From: a virus
Reading direction: 5' to 3' (one strand)
Virus record (IMG/VR): IMGVR_UViG_3300005573_001166
Location: 1 to 64,000 of that record
DNA: 64,000 nucleotides
Position numbers and translations under genes: made by a program. Every line of letters begins with the position of its first letter. Positions within the stretch are counted from its first letter, which is position 1. The notes under the pieces were generated by a model. It was given only the letters and a program-made list of their open reading frames with translations, made no database searches and was not told the origin of the DNA. This document shows, in pieces, positions 317 through 3,474 of the stretch.

Positions 317-511
317 TTAGATTTGCTCCCTCAGGTGACGAGGGAGCTTTCTCTTTAGCTCCATGTACAGGGGGATATCCCCCTTTCTAAGAGCCCTTAG
401 CGCCTCCTTAGCTGCCTTCTTGGCTGCCTCCTTATCGGCAGCCAAGTACTTCTCCTCTGACACTATACCCGACTTGTACATATAACTTCCTAGCTTCATT
501 TTCTCTTTCAT
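317..511 (-). CDS. small hypothetical protein
   Basis: ORF with GGAGG SD embedded in the repeated leader. Confidence 0.7.
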   Translation of the reverse strand: MKEKMKLGSYMYKSGIVSEEKYLAADKEAAKKAAKEALRALRKGDIPLYMELKRKLPRHLREQI

Positions 512-583
512 TTTTAAAATCCTCCTTTGGCTTTCTACTAAAAAAGGAAAGGAAGCCGAAAGCCAAAAGCTTCTTTTTCCTAC
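512..583 (-). promoter_or_regulatory. repeated structured 5' leader, copy 1 of 4
   Basis: Minus strand GTAGGAAAAAGAAGC-TTTTGGCTTTCG-GCTTCCTTTCCT...GAAAGCCAAAGGAGG. Near-identical copies at 861-929, 1152-1224 and 2652-2724. Confidence 0.85.
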
Positions 584-585
584 TT

Positions 586-651
586 ACAGGCTTGCCTGCC
601 TCCAGAGAGGCTTACACCGGCGCCGCAAGCAAGCCTGTTAAATGCCGGTAT
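586..651 (-). ncRNA. putative pseudoknotted RNA motif, copy 1
   Basis: Interleaved pairings ATACCGGC/GCCGGTGT and ACAGGCTTGC/GCAAGCCTGT, plus a GCCTC/GAGGC hairpin. Covaries with the copy at 1241-1307. Confidence 0.55.
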
Positions 652-654
652 TAG

Positions 655-675
655 AATGGGGGCTTACGCCCCATT
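655..675. terminator. GC-rich hairpin (GGGGC-GTAA-GCCCC on minus strand)
   Basis: Directly follows the stop of ORF 678-860; homologous to 151-166. Confidence 0.45.
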
Positions 676-677
676 GT

Positions 678-860
678 TTAGTCTTCAAGTTTGATTGTGA
701 TTGTGATCTCACTATCGTTTAACGTAATACTGTTTACTAGAGTTTTTTCCTTCTCGATCTCCTCTAGTTCAGAGGGGCTCAATAATAAAAAGAACTCGTG
801 CGTCTTTGGTCGGTCTTCGCACTTGTAGCAGTAGTAGTGATCACACAAAAATGATATCAT
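678..860 (-). CDS. small CxxC/His protein, paralog of 954-1151
   Basis: CYKCEDRPKTH...LSPSELE aligns with CTSCEHREKEH...LSRSELE. SD present. Confidence 0.75.
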   Translation of the reverse strand: MISFLCDHYYCYKCEDRPKTHEFFLLLSPSELEEIEKEKTLVNSITLNDSEITITIKLED

Positions 861-929
861 TTCAATCCTCCTTTTGGCTTTCTGTAAGTTTAGAAAAGAA
901 GCCGAAAGCCAAAAGCTTCTTTTCCTACT
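861..929 (-). promoter_or_regulatory. repeated structured 5' leader, copy 2
   Basis: Stem GAAAAGAAGC/GCTTCTTTTC. The CTTTTGGCTTTC segment is complementary to GAAAGCCAAAAG, which abuts the SD. Confidence 0.85.
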
Positions 930-953
930 AGCAAGCTGGTTGAAATGTTTGTG

Positions 954-1151
954 TTAACGGTTTACTGTTTTTAAATATGCAACAACAGTAGCTTCATTAA
1001 TTATAAACGTATCCTGATAGTATACAGGGATACGTTTTTTAAGCCTCTCTAGCTCAGAGCGGCTTAATGTTATTGTGAGTTTATGTTCTTTCTCCCGATG
1101 TTCGCAAGAGGTGCAAACACCTTCATTGAAATGTTTCAAAAACACTTTCAT
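954..1151 (-). CDS. small CxxC/His protein, paralog of 678-860
   Basis: Shared CxxCE-x-R-x-K-x-H and LSxSELE motifs. Confidence 0.75.
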   Translation of the reverse strand: MKVFLKHFNEGVCTSCEHREKEHKLTITLSRSELERLKKRIPVYYQDTFIINEATVVAYLKTVNR

Positions 1152-1224
1152 TTTAAAATCCTCCTTTTTGGCTTTCTAAACGAGTTTAGGAAAAGAAGCC
1201 GAAAAGCCAAAAGCTTCTTTTTCC
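1152..1224 (-). promoter_or_regulatory. repeated structured 5' leader, copy 3
   Basis: Same stem, loop and SD arrangement as copies 1 and 2. Confidence 0.85.
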
Positions 1225-1240
1225 CGCTACATCTTTTTAT

Positions 1241-1307
1241 ACAGGCTTGCCCTCCTTTTTGCAGAGGGCTTATGCCGACACCTTCAGCAAGCCTGCAATG
1301 CCGGCAT
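1241..1307 (-). ncRNA. putative pseudoknotted RNA motif, copy 2
   Basis: Pairings ATGCCGGCA/TGTCGGCAT, GCAGGCTT/AAGCCTGT and GCCCTCT/GGAGGGC. Begins immediately after the TAA of the DHH gene. Confidence 0.55.
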
Positions 1308-2114
1308 TTAGTCGTTCAGAAATAAAAGGTCAGCCGATTGAAATCCAGCTGCTCCTTTGTGGCCGCCTCCTCCATACTCGGCGGCTATACTCGATACATC
1401 GATGGCGTCAGAGTATATTGTTACTGTCCAATACCTTTTGTTGTTATCTGCAACCATTCTAAAGGTCATCCAGATAACAACGTCAGGTGCAAACTCCTTC
1501 ATAAACTCAGCCGATTTTATTAGGTCTGAGTTTACGGCAAGAGTTCTGTACCCACGCCATTCCAACAAAAAGCTGCGCTCTTTTAACACAGCTAACGATT
1601 GCTGCCTTATGTATTTGTAGATAGCAGCGCCTTTATCGATGATGGGTTGGCAGTCCTCGGATACTGTATTCCATATTTTTGACGTTGGGCTGGTGTCTTC
1701 TGCATGTATACCATAGGAGAAGTACATCGTACTATCTCCATACTGCCATGCCCATACATCCCTATCCCCTATTAGTTTGATGTACATAGGTACATCAGTA
1801 AAGGGGAACAGATATTCCCAAGTTAGCTCACACGCAGCTGTCCCCACCCGCCTTATGCCAGGAATGTGAGTGGGGAGGTTTTCTATAGCTGTCTTATGGT
1901 GGTCTATCCATATAACACACTCTTCCATTAGAGTAGTAAGCTGTTCCGGGGGAATAGCTATATCAAGAATGTATACTATATCTGCCCCCGTTCCATCGAT
2001 GGCAATATCACCGTGATGTAACGGGGCAAACTCTACATTTTTGTAGCAAGTGCCGACAAGATGGGCGCTTGCACGTCCATCCATGTCGTCGTGATATGCA
2101 ACCTTTACTTTCAT
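1308..2114 (-). CDS. DHH/DHHA1 family phosphoesterase
   Basis: YHDDMDG, ILD, IDHH and C-terminal GGGGHKGAAGF motifs. Confidence 0.9.
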   Translation of the reverse strand: MKVKVAYHDDMDGRASAHLVGTCYKNVEFAPLHHGDIAIDGTGADIVYILDIAIPPEQLTTLMEECVIWIDHHKTAIENLPTHIPGIRRVGTAACELTWEYLFPFTDVPMYIKLIGDRDVWAWQYGDSTMYFSYGIHAEDTSPTSKIWNTVSEDCQPIIDKGAAIYKYIRQQSLAVLKERSFLLEWRGYRTLAVNSDLIKSAEFMKEFAPDVVIWMTFRMVADNNKRYWTVTIYSDAIDVSSIAAEYGGGGHKGAAGFQSADLLFLND

Positions 2115-2126
2115 TTTTCACCACCC

Positions 2127-2651
2127 CTATGTGATGCTGCGGAGTTGCACAGCATCATTGTTTATGGTTAGTACGTATTTGTTACCGATAACAACTTCGT
2201 TATCGGTAACTTCTGTGCTGTCCGTAAACTTGATCGACTCAGGAAACGGCACTTTTCTAATCACATTTCCCTGAAGGTCTACTACCTCGGCTTTATGTAA
2301 CCGTACTACTACCCAATAGGTAGTAGTACGTACTACCAGCTCGCGACCCGCGTCGCCGCTGTAGTAGATCTGTTTTACATTATCCTCCACTCTGTAAATA
2401 ATGAGGGATACCGCGGAGGATAATGTAAGTGTTGCAAATTCTTCTGATACTGTTACAGACATGTCGTTTACCGGCACCCTTAGGCGCTCATGGTAAACAA
2501 CATGCCCGTTTGGCTTGTATACCGTGAAGTCCTTATCATACACTACAGCAACTAAGCCGCATATAAGGGTAGCTAAGTCGCCGTAAAAGCTGTTGACGAG
2601 GATGCCCTCTTGGTATAGAAATATTCTATTCTCTTTCTGTTCTAGCTTCAT
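2127..2651 (-). CDS. hypothetical beta-rich protein
   Basis: Start placed at ATG 2651, directly below the repeated leader and SD. Confidence 0.7.
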   Translation of the reverse strand: MKLEQKENRIFLYQEGILVNSFYGDLATLICGLVAVVYDKDFTVYKPNGHVVYHERLRVPVNDMSVTVSEEFATLTLSSAVSLIIYRVEDNVKQIYYSGDAGRELVVRTTTYWVVVRLHKAEVVDLQGNVIRKVPFPESIKFTDSTEVTDNEVVIGNKYVLTINNDAVQLRSIT

Positions 2652-2724
2652 TTTCAATCCTCCTTTTTTGGCTTTCTAATAAATAACTAGGAAAAAGCCG
2701 AAAGCCGAGAAGCTTCTTTCCTAC
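2652..2724 (-). promoter_or_regulatory. repeated structured 5' leader, copy 4, with a partial pseudoknot motif at 2727-2753
   Basis: Stem TAGGAAAGAAGC/GCTTTTTCCTA. Loop GGCTTTC is complementary to GAAAGCC before the SD. Confidence 0.8.
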
Positions 2725-2762
2725 TTACAGGCTTGCCTCCAGAGAGGCTTACAACTCCGTCC

Positions 2763-2827
2763 TTTTACTAAAAAAGATAATTATCCGGATAATCTCTTTA
2801 TCTGAGATAATACCCTTTTTAGTAAAA
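2763..2827. repeat. nested palindrome: 12-bp inverted repeat enclosing two TTATC/GATAA palindromes
   Basis: TTTTACTAAAAA (2763-2774) / TTTTTAGTAAAA (2816-2827); inner ATTATCCGGATAAT and TTATCTGAGATAA. Confidence 0.8.
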
Positions 2828-2878: not shown

Positions 2879-3082
2879 CGACAAACAAAAACCTGCTGTA
2901 GAAAAAATCGACATATATATATTAGAGGGTATATTAGACCCGACACATATTAGAGGGCATAATTAGACCGACAAACAAAAAACTGCCGTAGAAAAAACCG
3001 ACATATATATTAGAGGGTATATTAGACCAACATATATTAGAGGGCATAATTAGACCGACACACATATTAGGGTACATATTAG
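2879..3082. repeat. about 90-bp tandem duplication with ATATTAG(AGGG) sub-repeats; candidate origin iterons
   Basis: Units 2879-2968 and 2969-3055 plus a partial third, in the non-coding point where transcription diverges. Confidence 0.8.
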
Positions 3083-3474
3083 GAGAGCCCTCACATCAGA
3101 CCGACAAAAACCTGCTATATTTAACATACTTACAACACAATTTCTTACAGATTTTTTACAAAAGGCGGTTTCAAGTATTACGATACGGGGTCTATTTAGC
3201 GCCCCAGACCCCTGTCTTTCTGGCAACAGATTTAGATATTCTCAGACAACCAAGCTTCGACTTTGGGCAGCCATATACAAAGCAAAACCTGCCGTAGAAA
3301 AAATCAACACTGGTATAAAAATTACGCAGCGGTAATAATCTTACTATAAAAAAATTTTACAGGGGAATGGGGATTTTGGTTTTGGGCAGCCGTATAATAA
3401 ATTCGAGACCGCCATAGAGGAGGCCAACATACGGTATAACAATACAGAGGAAGATCAACTACAGGAGGAGGGGC

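What the first reader, a model, noticed from the sequence alone, without database searches (positions are those of the whole stretch)
586..1307. Repeated pseudoknot RNA with covariation and HDV-ribozyme-like topology, placed just after stop codons
Seen on the minus strand. Copy 586-651: ATACCGGC-ATTTA-ACAGGCTTGC-TTGCGGC-GCCGGTGT-AA-GCCTC(TCTG)GAGGC-AG-GCAAGCCTGT. Copy 1241-1307: ATGCCGGCA-TT-GCAGGCTT-GCTGAAGG-TGTCGGCAT-AA-GCCCTCT(GCAAAAA)GGAGGGC-AAGCCTGT. The helix order is A, B, A', hairpin, B'. Helix A shows a compensatory A-U to G-C change, the hairpin differs in sequence but keeps pairing, and G.U wobbles work only on the transcribed strand. A 3' half-copy lies at 2727-2753 and a decayed remnant at about 930-953. 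Established: this order matches P1/P2/P4 of HDV-like ribozymes, which cleave at the 5' end of P1. Here that point lies directly after the DHH stop codon. The canonical L3 (UCCNCG), the GG of P1.1 and the J4/2 spacing are not cleanly present. Inference: a divergent self-cleaving RNA, nuclease-blocking structure or ligand sensor that subdivides the leftward transcript.
Basis: partly seen in the sequence, partly recalled or inferred. Interest (0 to 1): 0.75.

Follow-up and report, generated by a model that had tools for sequence, protein, structure and literature searches.

The report
Repeated structured RNA between phage genes
A roughly 65-base RNA element with three conserved helices recurs between genes of one accessory-gene cluster in a few uncultured phages; it is real and in no RNA catalogue, but it lacks the defining parts of an HDV-type ribozyme and most likely marks off and stabilises pieces of a long messenger RNA.

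Summary
Both copies (651-586 and 1307-1241, minus strand) have the stated helices in the order A, B, A', hairpin, B'. The half copy at 2753-2727 is real.

I found 12 distinct copies in related metagenomic phage contigs. 95% of pair cells stay paired, against 31-42% when partners are slid. Covariation is thin:
- Helix A has one compensatory pair.
- The hairpin has two.
- Helix B, on which the pseudoknot depends, has none.

The HDV reading fails. There is no P3/L3, the P1-equivalent helix starts with A-U rather than G.U, and the J4/2 equivalent has no cytosine. No Rfam ribozyme or riboswitch model matches, even at E <= 10.

The element is the upstream half of a two-part intergenic cassette. The downstream half is a conserved 5' leader present in four copies. 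Cassettes occur only in this leftward cluster (DHH phosphoesterase plus small ORFs) and sit where gene units have been swapped between relatives.

Best reading, which is inferred: mRNA punctuation, with module 1 capping the 3' end of the upstream message, comparable to T4 PeSLs and T7/SP82 RNase III sites.

This scan has noted analogous, not homologous, gene-boundary pseudoknots in other phages.

The parts
586..651 (-). Module 1, copy A. Helix A 651-644/621-614, helix B 638-629/595-586, hairpin 611-598 (5 bp, loop UCUG).
   Evidence: Sequence; nhmmer E = 1e-19; CM 81.8 bits; pair counts.
1241..1307 (-). Module 1, copy B, starting at the base after the DHH stop codon (1310-1308). Helix A 1307-1299/1280-1272, helix B 1296-1289/1248-1241, hairpin 1269-1249 (7 bp, loop GCAAAAA).
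   Evidence: Sequence; nhmmer E = 2e-18; CM 74.6 bits.
2727..2753 (-). Half copy C: hairpin 2748-2735 plus B 3' arm 2734-2727. It has no A helix and no B 5' arm. It lies in the leader of the first gene of the cluster.
   Evidence: nhmmer E = 1e-6; alignment.
930..953 (-). Decayed remnant: a B 5'-arm-like ACCAGCTTGCT joined directly to the start of module 2.
   Evidence: Alignment of the four intergenic regions.
509..585 (-). Module 2, copy A. Conserved 5' leader: polypurine/hairpin H1, loop GGCUUUC complementary to GAAAGCC next to the Shine-Dalgarno, then the ATG of the 64-aa ORF.
   Evidence: nhmmer E = 4e-18; alignment A5.
1149..1228 (-). Module 2, copy B (leader of the 65-aa ORF).
   Evidence: nhmmer E = 5e-20.
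858..930 (-). Module 2, copy D (leader of the 60-aa ORF).
   Evidence: nhmmer E = 2e-18.
2649..2726 (-). Module 2, copy C (leader of the 174-aa ORF).
   Evidence: nhmmer E = 7e-19.
655..675 (-). GC-rich hairpin ('hairpin 0', AAUGGGGC-GUAA-GCCCCCAUU) between the stop codon of the 60-aa ORF and copy A. Relatives have hairpins of different sequence at the same position.
   Evidence: (I3).
1308..2114 (-). DHH-family phosphoesterase gene, upstream neighbour of copy B.
   Evidence: phrog_4771 E = 1e-37; Pfam DHH/DHHA1, weak.

Best explanation
Module 1 is a real RNA-level element on the coding (minus) strand. It has three helices: A (8-9 bp), B (7-10 bp) and a hairpin (5-8 bp). A and B interleave, so both can form together only as an H-type pseudoknot with the hairpin embedded in loop 3.

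Module 1 is the upstream, 3'-UTR side of a two-part intercistronic cassette. The downstream part, module 2, is a conserved 5' leader ending in the Shine-Dalgarno sequence. Cassettes separate the gene units of one leftward accessory-gene cluster. They mark the joints at which units were exchanged between related phages.

Most likely mechanism (inferred): the cluster is transcribed as a long RNA. A host endonuclease cuts in the A/U-rich single-stranded linker (UGUAAGUAGG) between the modules. Module 1 then protects the new 3' end of the upstream message from 3' exonucleases, and the hairpin at the start of module 2 protects the new 5' end of the downstream message. Each gene unit therefore carries its own stability and translation context wherever recombination places it.

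Shown: the repeats, the pairing, the modest strand bias, the restriction to this cluster, cassette-linked gene shuffling, and the absence of HDV features and Rfam matches. Inferred: transcription as one RNA, cleavage in the linker, the protective role, and whether A and B form at the same time.
For: - **Repeats and architecture.**
- **Pairing.** 12 distinct copies keep 95% of 302 pair cells, against 31-42% with slid partners; no shuffle (0 of 500) reached the observed paired fraction or covariation score.
- **Helix A.** It passes through A-U, G.U and G-C at one pair and U.G, U-A and C-G at another.
- **Hairpin.** The stem is kept while the loop varies from 3 to 9 nt. At some positions it is replaced by a hairpin of unrelated sequence.
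- **Column variation.** 38% of stem columns vary, against 68% of unpaired columns. The sense strand pairs better than the antisense strand.
- **Distribution.** No further copy exists in the 159-kb genome.
- **Shuffling.** Gene units between cassettes differ in content and order among relatives.
- **Break point.** L076 and L093 are identical through the upstream gene's 3' end, hairpin 0 and module 1, then diverge exactly after ...CCTGTA. Module 1 therefore travels with the upstream gene and module 2 with the downstream gene.
- **No promoter or terminator.** No plausible sigma-70-like promoter lies in the cassettes on this strand; the one weak 9-of-12 match overlaps the ribosome-binding site. 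No hairpin plus U-tract terminator lies in module 1.
- **Precedent.** In B. subtilis, RNase Y prefers A/U-rich, weakly structured G/A sites with structure downstream. A downstream hairpin stabilises the cleaved product against RNase J1 (PMC11780869).
Against:
- Helix B has no covariation. Its only indels are uncompensated (L094:11-84, L093:3849-3919).
- A crude energy sum puts the pseudoknot about level with the best nested folds, so the knot is not established.
- The 3' arms of A and B stay conserved in copies that have lost their 5' partners. This points to a sequence-specific role, such as protein or RNase recognition, beyond pairing.
- The copies are close relatives (72-85% identity), so statistical power is low and gene conversion may inflate apparent conservation.
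- The host, and hence its RNase set, is unknown.
Confidence: 0.5

Rival explanations
1. DNA-level explanation. The cassettes are mainly recombination scaffolds, or leftovers of unit duplication and gene conversion. The helices are inherited from one ancestral palindromic sequence and have no RNA function of their own.
For: - Cassettes lie at synteny break points.
- Several copies are partial or decayed: the A 5' arm is lost in L076:2679-2752 and L093:4521-4593, and both A arms are deleted in L064:3070-3124. There are also half copies.
- Module 1 evolves faster than the adjacent DHH gene: 85% against 94% nucleotide identity.
- Antisense pairing is only 5 points lower than sense pairing.
Against: - The substitutions seen in stems preserve pairing through G.U intermediates, which work only on the coding strand.
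- Hairpins of unrelated sequence occupy the same position.
- Three independent inverted repeats in 65 nt fold better than shuffles (z = -2.5 and -3.8).
Confidence: 0.15
2. Protein-recognised regulatory RNA. Module 1, with or without module 2, would be a shared binding site for a phage or host protein. Candidates are a translational or decay operator that shuts the whole cluster off together, or a put/nut-like antitermination signal that carries RNA polymerase past the intergenic hairpins.
For: - A 3' and B 3' arm sequences, and the repeated UGUAAG on both sides of the hairpin, stay conserved even without their pairing partners.
- The linker between the B 5' arm and the A 3' arm is always exactly 6 nt.
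- The cluster has GC-rich hairpins between units.
- An unchecked scan note reports a NusG paralog and a sigma factor elsewhere in the window.
Against: - No partner protein has been identified.
- The element is absent from the rest of the genome, including the long rightward block where a NusG paralog would be expected to act.
- Processive antitermination signals normally need to be transcribed only once per operon.
Confidence: 0.15
3. Composite terminator-promoter cassette of the PeSL type. Each unit would have its own promoter inside the cassette, for example around AAGCCTGTAAGTAGG, read by a host or phage sigma factor. The hairpins would attenuate transcription from upstream.
For: - The layout matches PeSLs: stop codon, stem-loop, Shine-Dalgarno, start codon, between small variable genes, with shuffling (PMC2839356; PMC4122927).
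- AAGCCTGTA plus the start of module 2 is the most conserved stretch and survives in half copies.
Against: - No plausible sigma-70-like -35/-10 pair lies in the cassettes on the minus strand; the only weak match overlaps the ribosome-binding site.
- The motif occurs nowhere else in the genome.
- An 11-14 nt insertion between AAGCCTGTA and the leader is tolerated.
- No hairpin in module 1 has a U-tract.
Confidence: 0.12
4. Self-cleaving ribozyme, either HDV-like or of a new class, that cuts at the 5' edge of helix A just after the stop codon.
For: The order A, B, A', hairpin, B' resembles P1, P2, P1', P4, P2' of HDV-like ribozymes. Three copies start directly after the DHH stop codon.
Against: - There is no P3/L3 or P1.1: only 6 nt lie between the B 5' arm and the A 3' arm in all copies.
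- The J4/2 equivalent is AG or absent, with no C.
- The first pair of helix A is an invariant A-U.
- Very few unpaired nucleotides are invariant.
- No Rfam ribozyme model matches at E <= 10.
- Some copies have lost helix A entirely yet are otherwise conserved.
Confidence: 0.05
5. Ligand-sensing riboswitch with an H-type pseudoknot and embedded hairpin, the topology I recall for the class II preQ1 riboswitch. The phage reportedly has a 7-deazaguanine pathway.
For: The topology is the same (from memory). The deazaguanine genes are reported only by an unchecked scan note.
Against: - No Rfam riboswitch matches.
- Junctions vary in sequence and length, and copy B lacks one junction altogether.
- The B 3' arm is not the Shine-Dalgarno sequence.
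- The element follows genes rather than leading them.
- It is not associated with the deazaguanine genes.
Confidence: 0.03

Closest known systems
PeSLs (promoter-early stem-loops) of T4-type phages (Arbiol et al. 2010, PMC2839356; Comeau et al. 2014, PMC4122927)
   Same: Both are short repeated intergenic cassettes spanning stop codon, stem-loop, Shine-Dalgarno and start codon. Both are concentrated among small variable genes and sit at the joints where gene units were swapped between related phages.
   Different: No sigma-70-like promoter is detectable in the cassette. There are two separable modules. The upstream module has three helices with pseudoknot potential instead of a simple G/C stem-loop. 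Only about 4 copies occur, in a single cluster, against about 50 per T4-type genome.
Intercistronic RNase III processing signals of phage early transcripts (T7 early region, from memory; SP82 sites cleaved by B. subtilis RNase III, Panganiban & Whiteley 1983, as cited in PMC4838370)
   Same: Both are repeated, irregular stem structures placed between cistrons of an early polycistronic RNA. After cleavage they would leave a protective structure at the 3' end of the upstream message. Helix B plus the hairpin forms a two-stem structure with an internal loop.
   Different: Cleavage is untested. The stems are short (7-10 bp plus 5-8 bp). The internal loop is very asymmetric, with 17 nt on the 5' side. 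That loop pairs with an upstream arm (helix A), which is not a feature of RNase III sites.
HDV-like self-cleaving ribozymes
   Same: The order of three helices is the same: P1 5', P2 5', P1 3', P4 hairpin, P2 3'.
   Different: P3/L3, P1.1, the catalytic C of J4/2 and the G.U at the cleavage site are all missing. There is no covariance-model match.
REP-type and other 3'-terminal stabiliser structures, and exonuclease-resistant pseudoknots (xrRNA/coremin class) (from memory; an unchecked scan note, e1-5511788, reports coremin-like knots in other phages)
   Same: Both are compact, stable structures placed just after coding regions that would stall exonucleases.
   Different: There is no sequence or size similarity, and resistance is untested.
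Class II preQ1 riboswitch fold (H-type pseudoknot with a hairpin embedded in loop 3; from memory)
   Same: The topology of two interleaved helices plus an embedded hairpin is the same.
   Different: The helices are much longer, there is no conserved binding-pocket junction, the 3' arm does not hold the Shine-Dalgarno sequence, and no Rfam model matches.

Membership tests
HDV-like ribozyme | P3 stem with L3 loop and P1.1 between the P2 5' strand and the P1 3' strand | tested here: not met
   Exactly 6 unpaired nt (U-N-N-N-R-G) lie between the B 5' arm and the A 3' arm in all 12 distinct copies. There is no room for a stem-loop.
HDV-like ribozyme | Catalytic cytosine in J4/2 | tested here: not met
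   The segment between the hairpin and the B 3' arm is AG in 11 copies and absent in window copy B. It contains no C.
HDV-like ribozyme | G.U wobble closing P1 at the cleavage site | tested here: not met
   The first pair of helix A is A-U in 12 of 12 copies.
HDV-like ribozyme | Match to the Rfam covariance models of the family | tested here: not met
   No match at gathering score in the window or in relatives. No ribozyme family matches at E <= 10 in 3.4-kb and 0.83-kb searches.
HDV-like ribozyme | Site-specific self-cleavage | not testable with these tools
   This needs in vitro transcription.
Other small self-cleaving ribozymes (hammerhead, twister, pistol, hatchet and others) | Covariance-model match and a conserved unpaired catalytic core | tested here: not met
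   No Rfam match. Only U30, G35, A45, A46 and usually A70, G71 of alignment A6 are invariant unpaired positions.
PeSL-type mobile regulatory cassette | Repeated intergenic cassette (stop, stem-loop, Shine-Dalgarno, start) among small variable genes | tested here: met
PeSL-type mobile regulatory cassette | Cassettes at the joints of gene-unit exchange between related phages | tested here: met
   Unit order and content differ among the window, L064, L076, L093, L072 and L074. The L076/L093 break point lies exactly at the module 1/module 2 junction.
PeSL-type mobile regulatory cassette | Strong sigma-70-like early promoter inside the cassette | tested here: inconclusive
   The consensus scan finds no plausible promoter on the minus strand within the cassettes. 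However, the host and its promoter type are unknown, and a scan note reports that the phage has its own sigma factor.
Intrinsic terminator | GC-rich hairpin followed by a U-tract | tested here: not met
   No minus-strand terminator-like site lies in module 1. The hairpin is followed by AGGCAAGCC.
RNase III processing signal | About two turns of near-continuous duplex with an internal loop at the scissile site, and cleavage by RNase III | tested here: inconclusive
   Helix B plus the hairpin gives 15-18 bp, interrupted by a 17-nt/2-nt loop. Cleavage cannot be tested here.
Riboswitch with H-type pseudoknot and embedded hairpin (preQ1-II) | Rfam model match, conserved ligand-pocket junctions, and a 3' arm that sequesters the Shine-Dalgarno sequence | tested here: not met
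   No match. The junctions are variable. The Shine-Dalgarno sequence lies about 70-90 nt further downstream, in module 2.

The most novel reading that the evidence does not exclude
Module 1 is a self-sufficient RNA device of a new class. It would be either an exoribonuclease-blocking pseudoknot or a self-cleaving fold unrelated to known ribozymes. Without help from proteins, it would cut or insulate a phage polycistronic mRNA at gene-unit boundaries, and it would move together with the genes it serves.
Probability: 0.08. Interest if true: 0.75.

Novelty: new variant of a known kind. Interest (0 to 1): 0.38.

Why it matters
Phage accessory and anti-defence regions are built from swappable gene units, and how each unit keeps working after being moved is poorly understood. 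This cluster offers a compact, testable example. A two-part RNA cassette gives every unit a 3' cap and a 5' leader, and its parts separate exactly at a recombination joint. If the processing model holds, the two modules would be portable mRNA insulators for Shine-Dalgarno-using hosts. They would also extend the PeSL idea from promoter/terminator DNA signals to RNA-structure signals. The practical result for the scan is negative but useful: this is not a new home for HDV-like ribozymes.

Tried and rejected
- **Rfam.** No match at gathering score in the whole window or in four related loci. No ribozyme or riboswitch at E <= 10, only weak unrelated hits.
- **Cultured phages.** DNA search found no match. 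The DHH protein found only relatives below 33% identity, in unrelated phages, so it gives no host clue.
- **IMG/VR.** The peptide scan found nothing. Three DNA-pattern scans gave only chance hits, checked by script, or no hits.
- **Genome collection.** The pattern scan gave one low-complexity chance hit in an Acidobacteriota MAG.
- **Metagenome pattern scan.** Of 16 loci, 5 were true relatives (L070, L072, L074, L076, L078). The other 11 were not matched by the model.
- **Distant DHH homologues (about 40% identity).** Their genes are tightly packed and carry no element, so the element is not tied to DHH.
- **Promoter or motif elsewhere.** The linker motifs occur only in the cassettes, apart from chance short matches.
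- **MITE or transposon reading.** Rejected, because the helix A 5' arm lies outside the B inverted repeats.
- **ToxI-like antitoxin or CRISPR-repeat mimic.** Rejected, because the copies are dispersed between genes rather than tandem.
- **Stop-codon read-through or frameshift signal.** Rejected, because a read-through frame ends after 7 codons and most copies are not adjacent to a stop codon.
- **'Cassettes are more conserved than genes'.** Not upheld: module 1 is 85% identical against 94% for the adjacent DHH gene.
- **Pseudoknot versus nested fold by energy.** Undecided.
- **Other tools.** Relatives cannot be drawn for a virus record.

Full report
**Setting**

The window is the first 64 kb of a 159,386-nt IMG/VR virus record with 39% G+C and no terminal repeat. 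The finding lies in the only leftward gene cluster at the left end. Its genes are:
- a 174-aa ORF (2651-2127);
- a DHH-family phosphoesterase (2114-1308; phrog_4771, E = 1e-37);
- four small orphan ORFs (1151-954, 860-678, 511-317, 299-174).

All six have GGAGG-type ribosome-binding sites.

**The observation**

- Copy A: helix A 651-644/621-614, helix B 638-629/595-586, hairpin 611-598.
- Copy B: helix A 1307-1299/1280-1272, helix B 1296-1289/1248-1241, hairpin 1269-1249. It starts at the base after the DHH stop codon (1310-1308).
- The half copy at 2753-2727 (hairpin plus B 3' arm) is real.
- The 'remnant' at 953-930 is a B 5'-arm-like stretch fused to the next leader.

Nested folding picks helix B in copy A and helix A in copy B, with z-scores of -2.5 and -3.8 against shuffles. 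Both helices are therefore thermodynamically credible in both copies.

**What the repeat unit is**

Aligning the four long intergenic regions shows a two-module unit.
- Module 2 is a roughly 75-nt leader in four copies (585-509, 1228-1149, 930-858, 2726-2649). It has a polypurine/hairpin stem, a loop GGCUUUC complementary to GAAAGCC next to the Shine-Dalgarno sequence, and then the start codon. Both heptamers are invariant in 14 copies.

An earlier scan note (e1-5659101) describes module 2 in the same way.

Module 2 can occur alone. Module 1 is always followed by module 2. Neither module occurs anywhere else in the genome, by nhmmer or by covariance model.

**Relatives**

Cultured phages and IMG/VR gave nothing. 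Relatives came from three routes:
- the DHH protein led to contigs with 94% and 91% identical proteins;
- one metagenome pattern scan gave more;
- a second protein family gave more still.

A covariance model (R1) then collected 14 hits, 12 of them distinct full-length or nearly full-length copies (5' arm of helix A decayed in two). There were also half copies and a copy lacking helix A.

**Structure test**

I used pseudoknot notation on the 12 distinct copies.
- 95.0% of 302 cells are standard pairs, against 31-42% when partners are slid. No shuffle (0 of 500) reached the observed paired fraction or covariation score.
- Helix A: one pair runs A-U, G.U, G-C. One runs U.G, U-A, C-G. One runs G-C, G.U.
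- Hairpin: two pairs change on both sides. The loop varies from 3 to 9 nt. At two positions a hairpin of unrelated sequence takes its place.
- Helix B: the only variation is A or G opposite U. The indels that occur in it are not compensated (L094:11-84, L093:3849-3919).

On the 7-copy alignment A2:
- 96.6% of cells pair on the sense strand, against 91.5% on the antisense strand.
- 38% of stem columns vary, against 68% of unpaired columns.

The copies are 72-85% identical, so power is low. The data fit a sense-strand RNA structure and give fair support to helix A and the hairpin. They do not establish helix B beyond conservation, so they do not establish the pseudoknot. A crude energy sum puts the knot about level with the best nested folds.

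**Pattern of loss**

- Both arms of helix A are cleanly absent in L064:3070-3124, leaving helix B plus the hairpin as one irregular stem.
- The A 5' arm has decayed in L076:2679-2752 and L093:4521-4593.
- The B 5' arm is missing in the half copies.

The universal core is the hairpin, then AAGCCUGUA, then module 2. The 3' arms stay conserved without their partners, which pairing alone does not explain.

**Why it is not an HDV-like ribozyme**

HDV-like ribozymes need P3/L3 and P1.1 between the P2 and P1 strands, a catalytic C in J4/2, and a G.U at the cleavage site (established knowledge). Here:
- the corresponding segment is always 6 unpaired nt;
- the J4/2 equivalent is AG, or missing;
- the first pair of helix A is always A-U;
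- only four to six unpaired positions are invariant;
- Rfam gives no match at gathering score, and no ribozyme or riboswitch at E <= 10 even in an 831-nt search.

From memory, the topology is closer to an H-type pseudoknot with a hairpin embedded in loop 3, as in the class II preQ1 riboswitch. The variable junctions and the position after genes argue against a sensor.

**What it most likely does**

The units between cassettes differ in content and order among relatives:
- window: [174 aa + DHH], [65 aa], [60 aa], [64 + 41 aa];
- L064: [179 aa + DHH], [WD40], [186 aa], [ankyrin + Csx3-like ...];
- L076: [144 aa], [WD40], [62 + 41 aa] ...

L076 and L093 are identical through the end of the WD40 gene, a GC-rich hairpin and module 1. 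They diverge exactly after CCTGTA into different leaders and genes. Module 1 therefore belongs to the upstream gene and module 2 to the downstream gene.

No plausible sigma-70-like promoter and no terminator lie in the cassettes on this strand. The one weak promoter-like match overlaps a ribosome-binding site. The linker motifs occur nowhere else in the genome.

The simplest reading is RNA punctuation of a polycistronic message:
- a cut in the A/U-rich single-stranded linker UGUAAGUAGG;
- module 1 as a 3' cap for the upstream message;
- the module 2 hairpin as a 5' cap for the downstream message.

This matches what is known for RNase Y sites and downstream stabilising hairpins in B. subtilis (PMC11780869). 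It also matches the intercistronic RNase III sites of phage early RNAs (SP82, cited in PMC4838370; T7 from memory). In architecture and evolution the closest described system is the PeSL cassette of T4-type phages (PMC2839356, PMC4122927). The differences are that no promoter is visible here and that the signal is a multi-helix RNA.

**Verdict**

This is a real, uncatalogued, clade-restricted structured RNA. It forms the 3' half of a mobile two-part intercistronic cassette. The ribozyme reading is not supported. The pseudoknot is possible but unproven.

The scan has noted analogous, not homologous, gene-boundary pseudoknots in other phages. A look-up by sequence found no look-alike outside this genome.

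Noticed in passing
window 509-585, 858-930, 1149-1228, 2649-2726 (minus strand): Module 2 is a conserved 5' leader in four copies, with 14 distinct copies across relatives. The loop GGCUUUC and the GAAAGCC abutting the Shine-Dalgarno sequence are both invariant, so the leader itself could form an H-type pseudoknot or a two-state switch. It gives weak sub-threshold hits to Rfam caiA RNA (22.8 and 17 bits, gathering score 55.5).
   Followed up: partly
window 1305-1310; L064 1550-1555; L066 2717-2722: All DHH-linked copies read UAA-AUG. The A-to-G change that covaries in helix A also creates a start codon right after the DHH stop. This opens a 7-13-codon mini-ORF through the 5' arms of helices A and B. 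It may be a termination-reinitiation device or a coincidence.
   Followed up: no
window 655-675 and 151-166: There are two GC-rich hairpins (GGGGC-GUAA-GCCCC type) whose cores are exact reverse complements of each other. One precedes module 1 copy A and one closes the cluster. Relatives carry hairpins of different sequence (CUGACGU...ACGUCAG) at the same position.
   Followed up: partly
window 2763-2827: A 30-nt imperfect inverted repeat holds TTATCCGGATAA and sits just upstream of the first cassette. It is conserved, and the TTATCCGGATAA box is duplicated, in L076. It looks like an operator at the head of the leftward cluster.
   Followed up: no
window 2879-3120 and about 3262-3400: Iteron-like direct repeats (units ATATTAGAGGG(C/T)ATA and GACAAACAAAAACCTGC(T/C)GTA) lie in the divergence region between the leftward cluster and the rightward genes. 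The promoter scan flags several as promoter-like on the plus strand.
   Followed up: no
window 954-1151 and 678-860: The 65-aa and 60-aa ORFs are paralogues (46% identity over 28 aa, E = 3e-5) with a CxxC...H motif. This indicates tandem duplication of a gene together with its leader.
   Followed up: partly
L064 1699-10543: In the closest relative, the cluster downstream of DHH holds WD40-repeat, ankyrin-repeat and Csx3-like (PF09620) proteins instead of the window's small ORFs. Together with the DHH phosphoesterase, this looks like an anti-defence or host-takeover island.
   Followed up: no
P0126: A 46%-identical homologue of one cluster gene (the 144-aa ORF of L076) is named as from Bacillus alveayuensis/Aeribacillus and lies on a 256-kb contig. 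With the GGAGG ribosome-binding sites and 39% G+C, this hints at a Bacillota host, possibly a thermophilic one.
   Followed up: no
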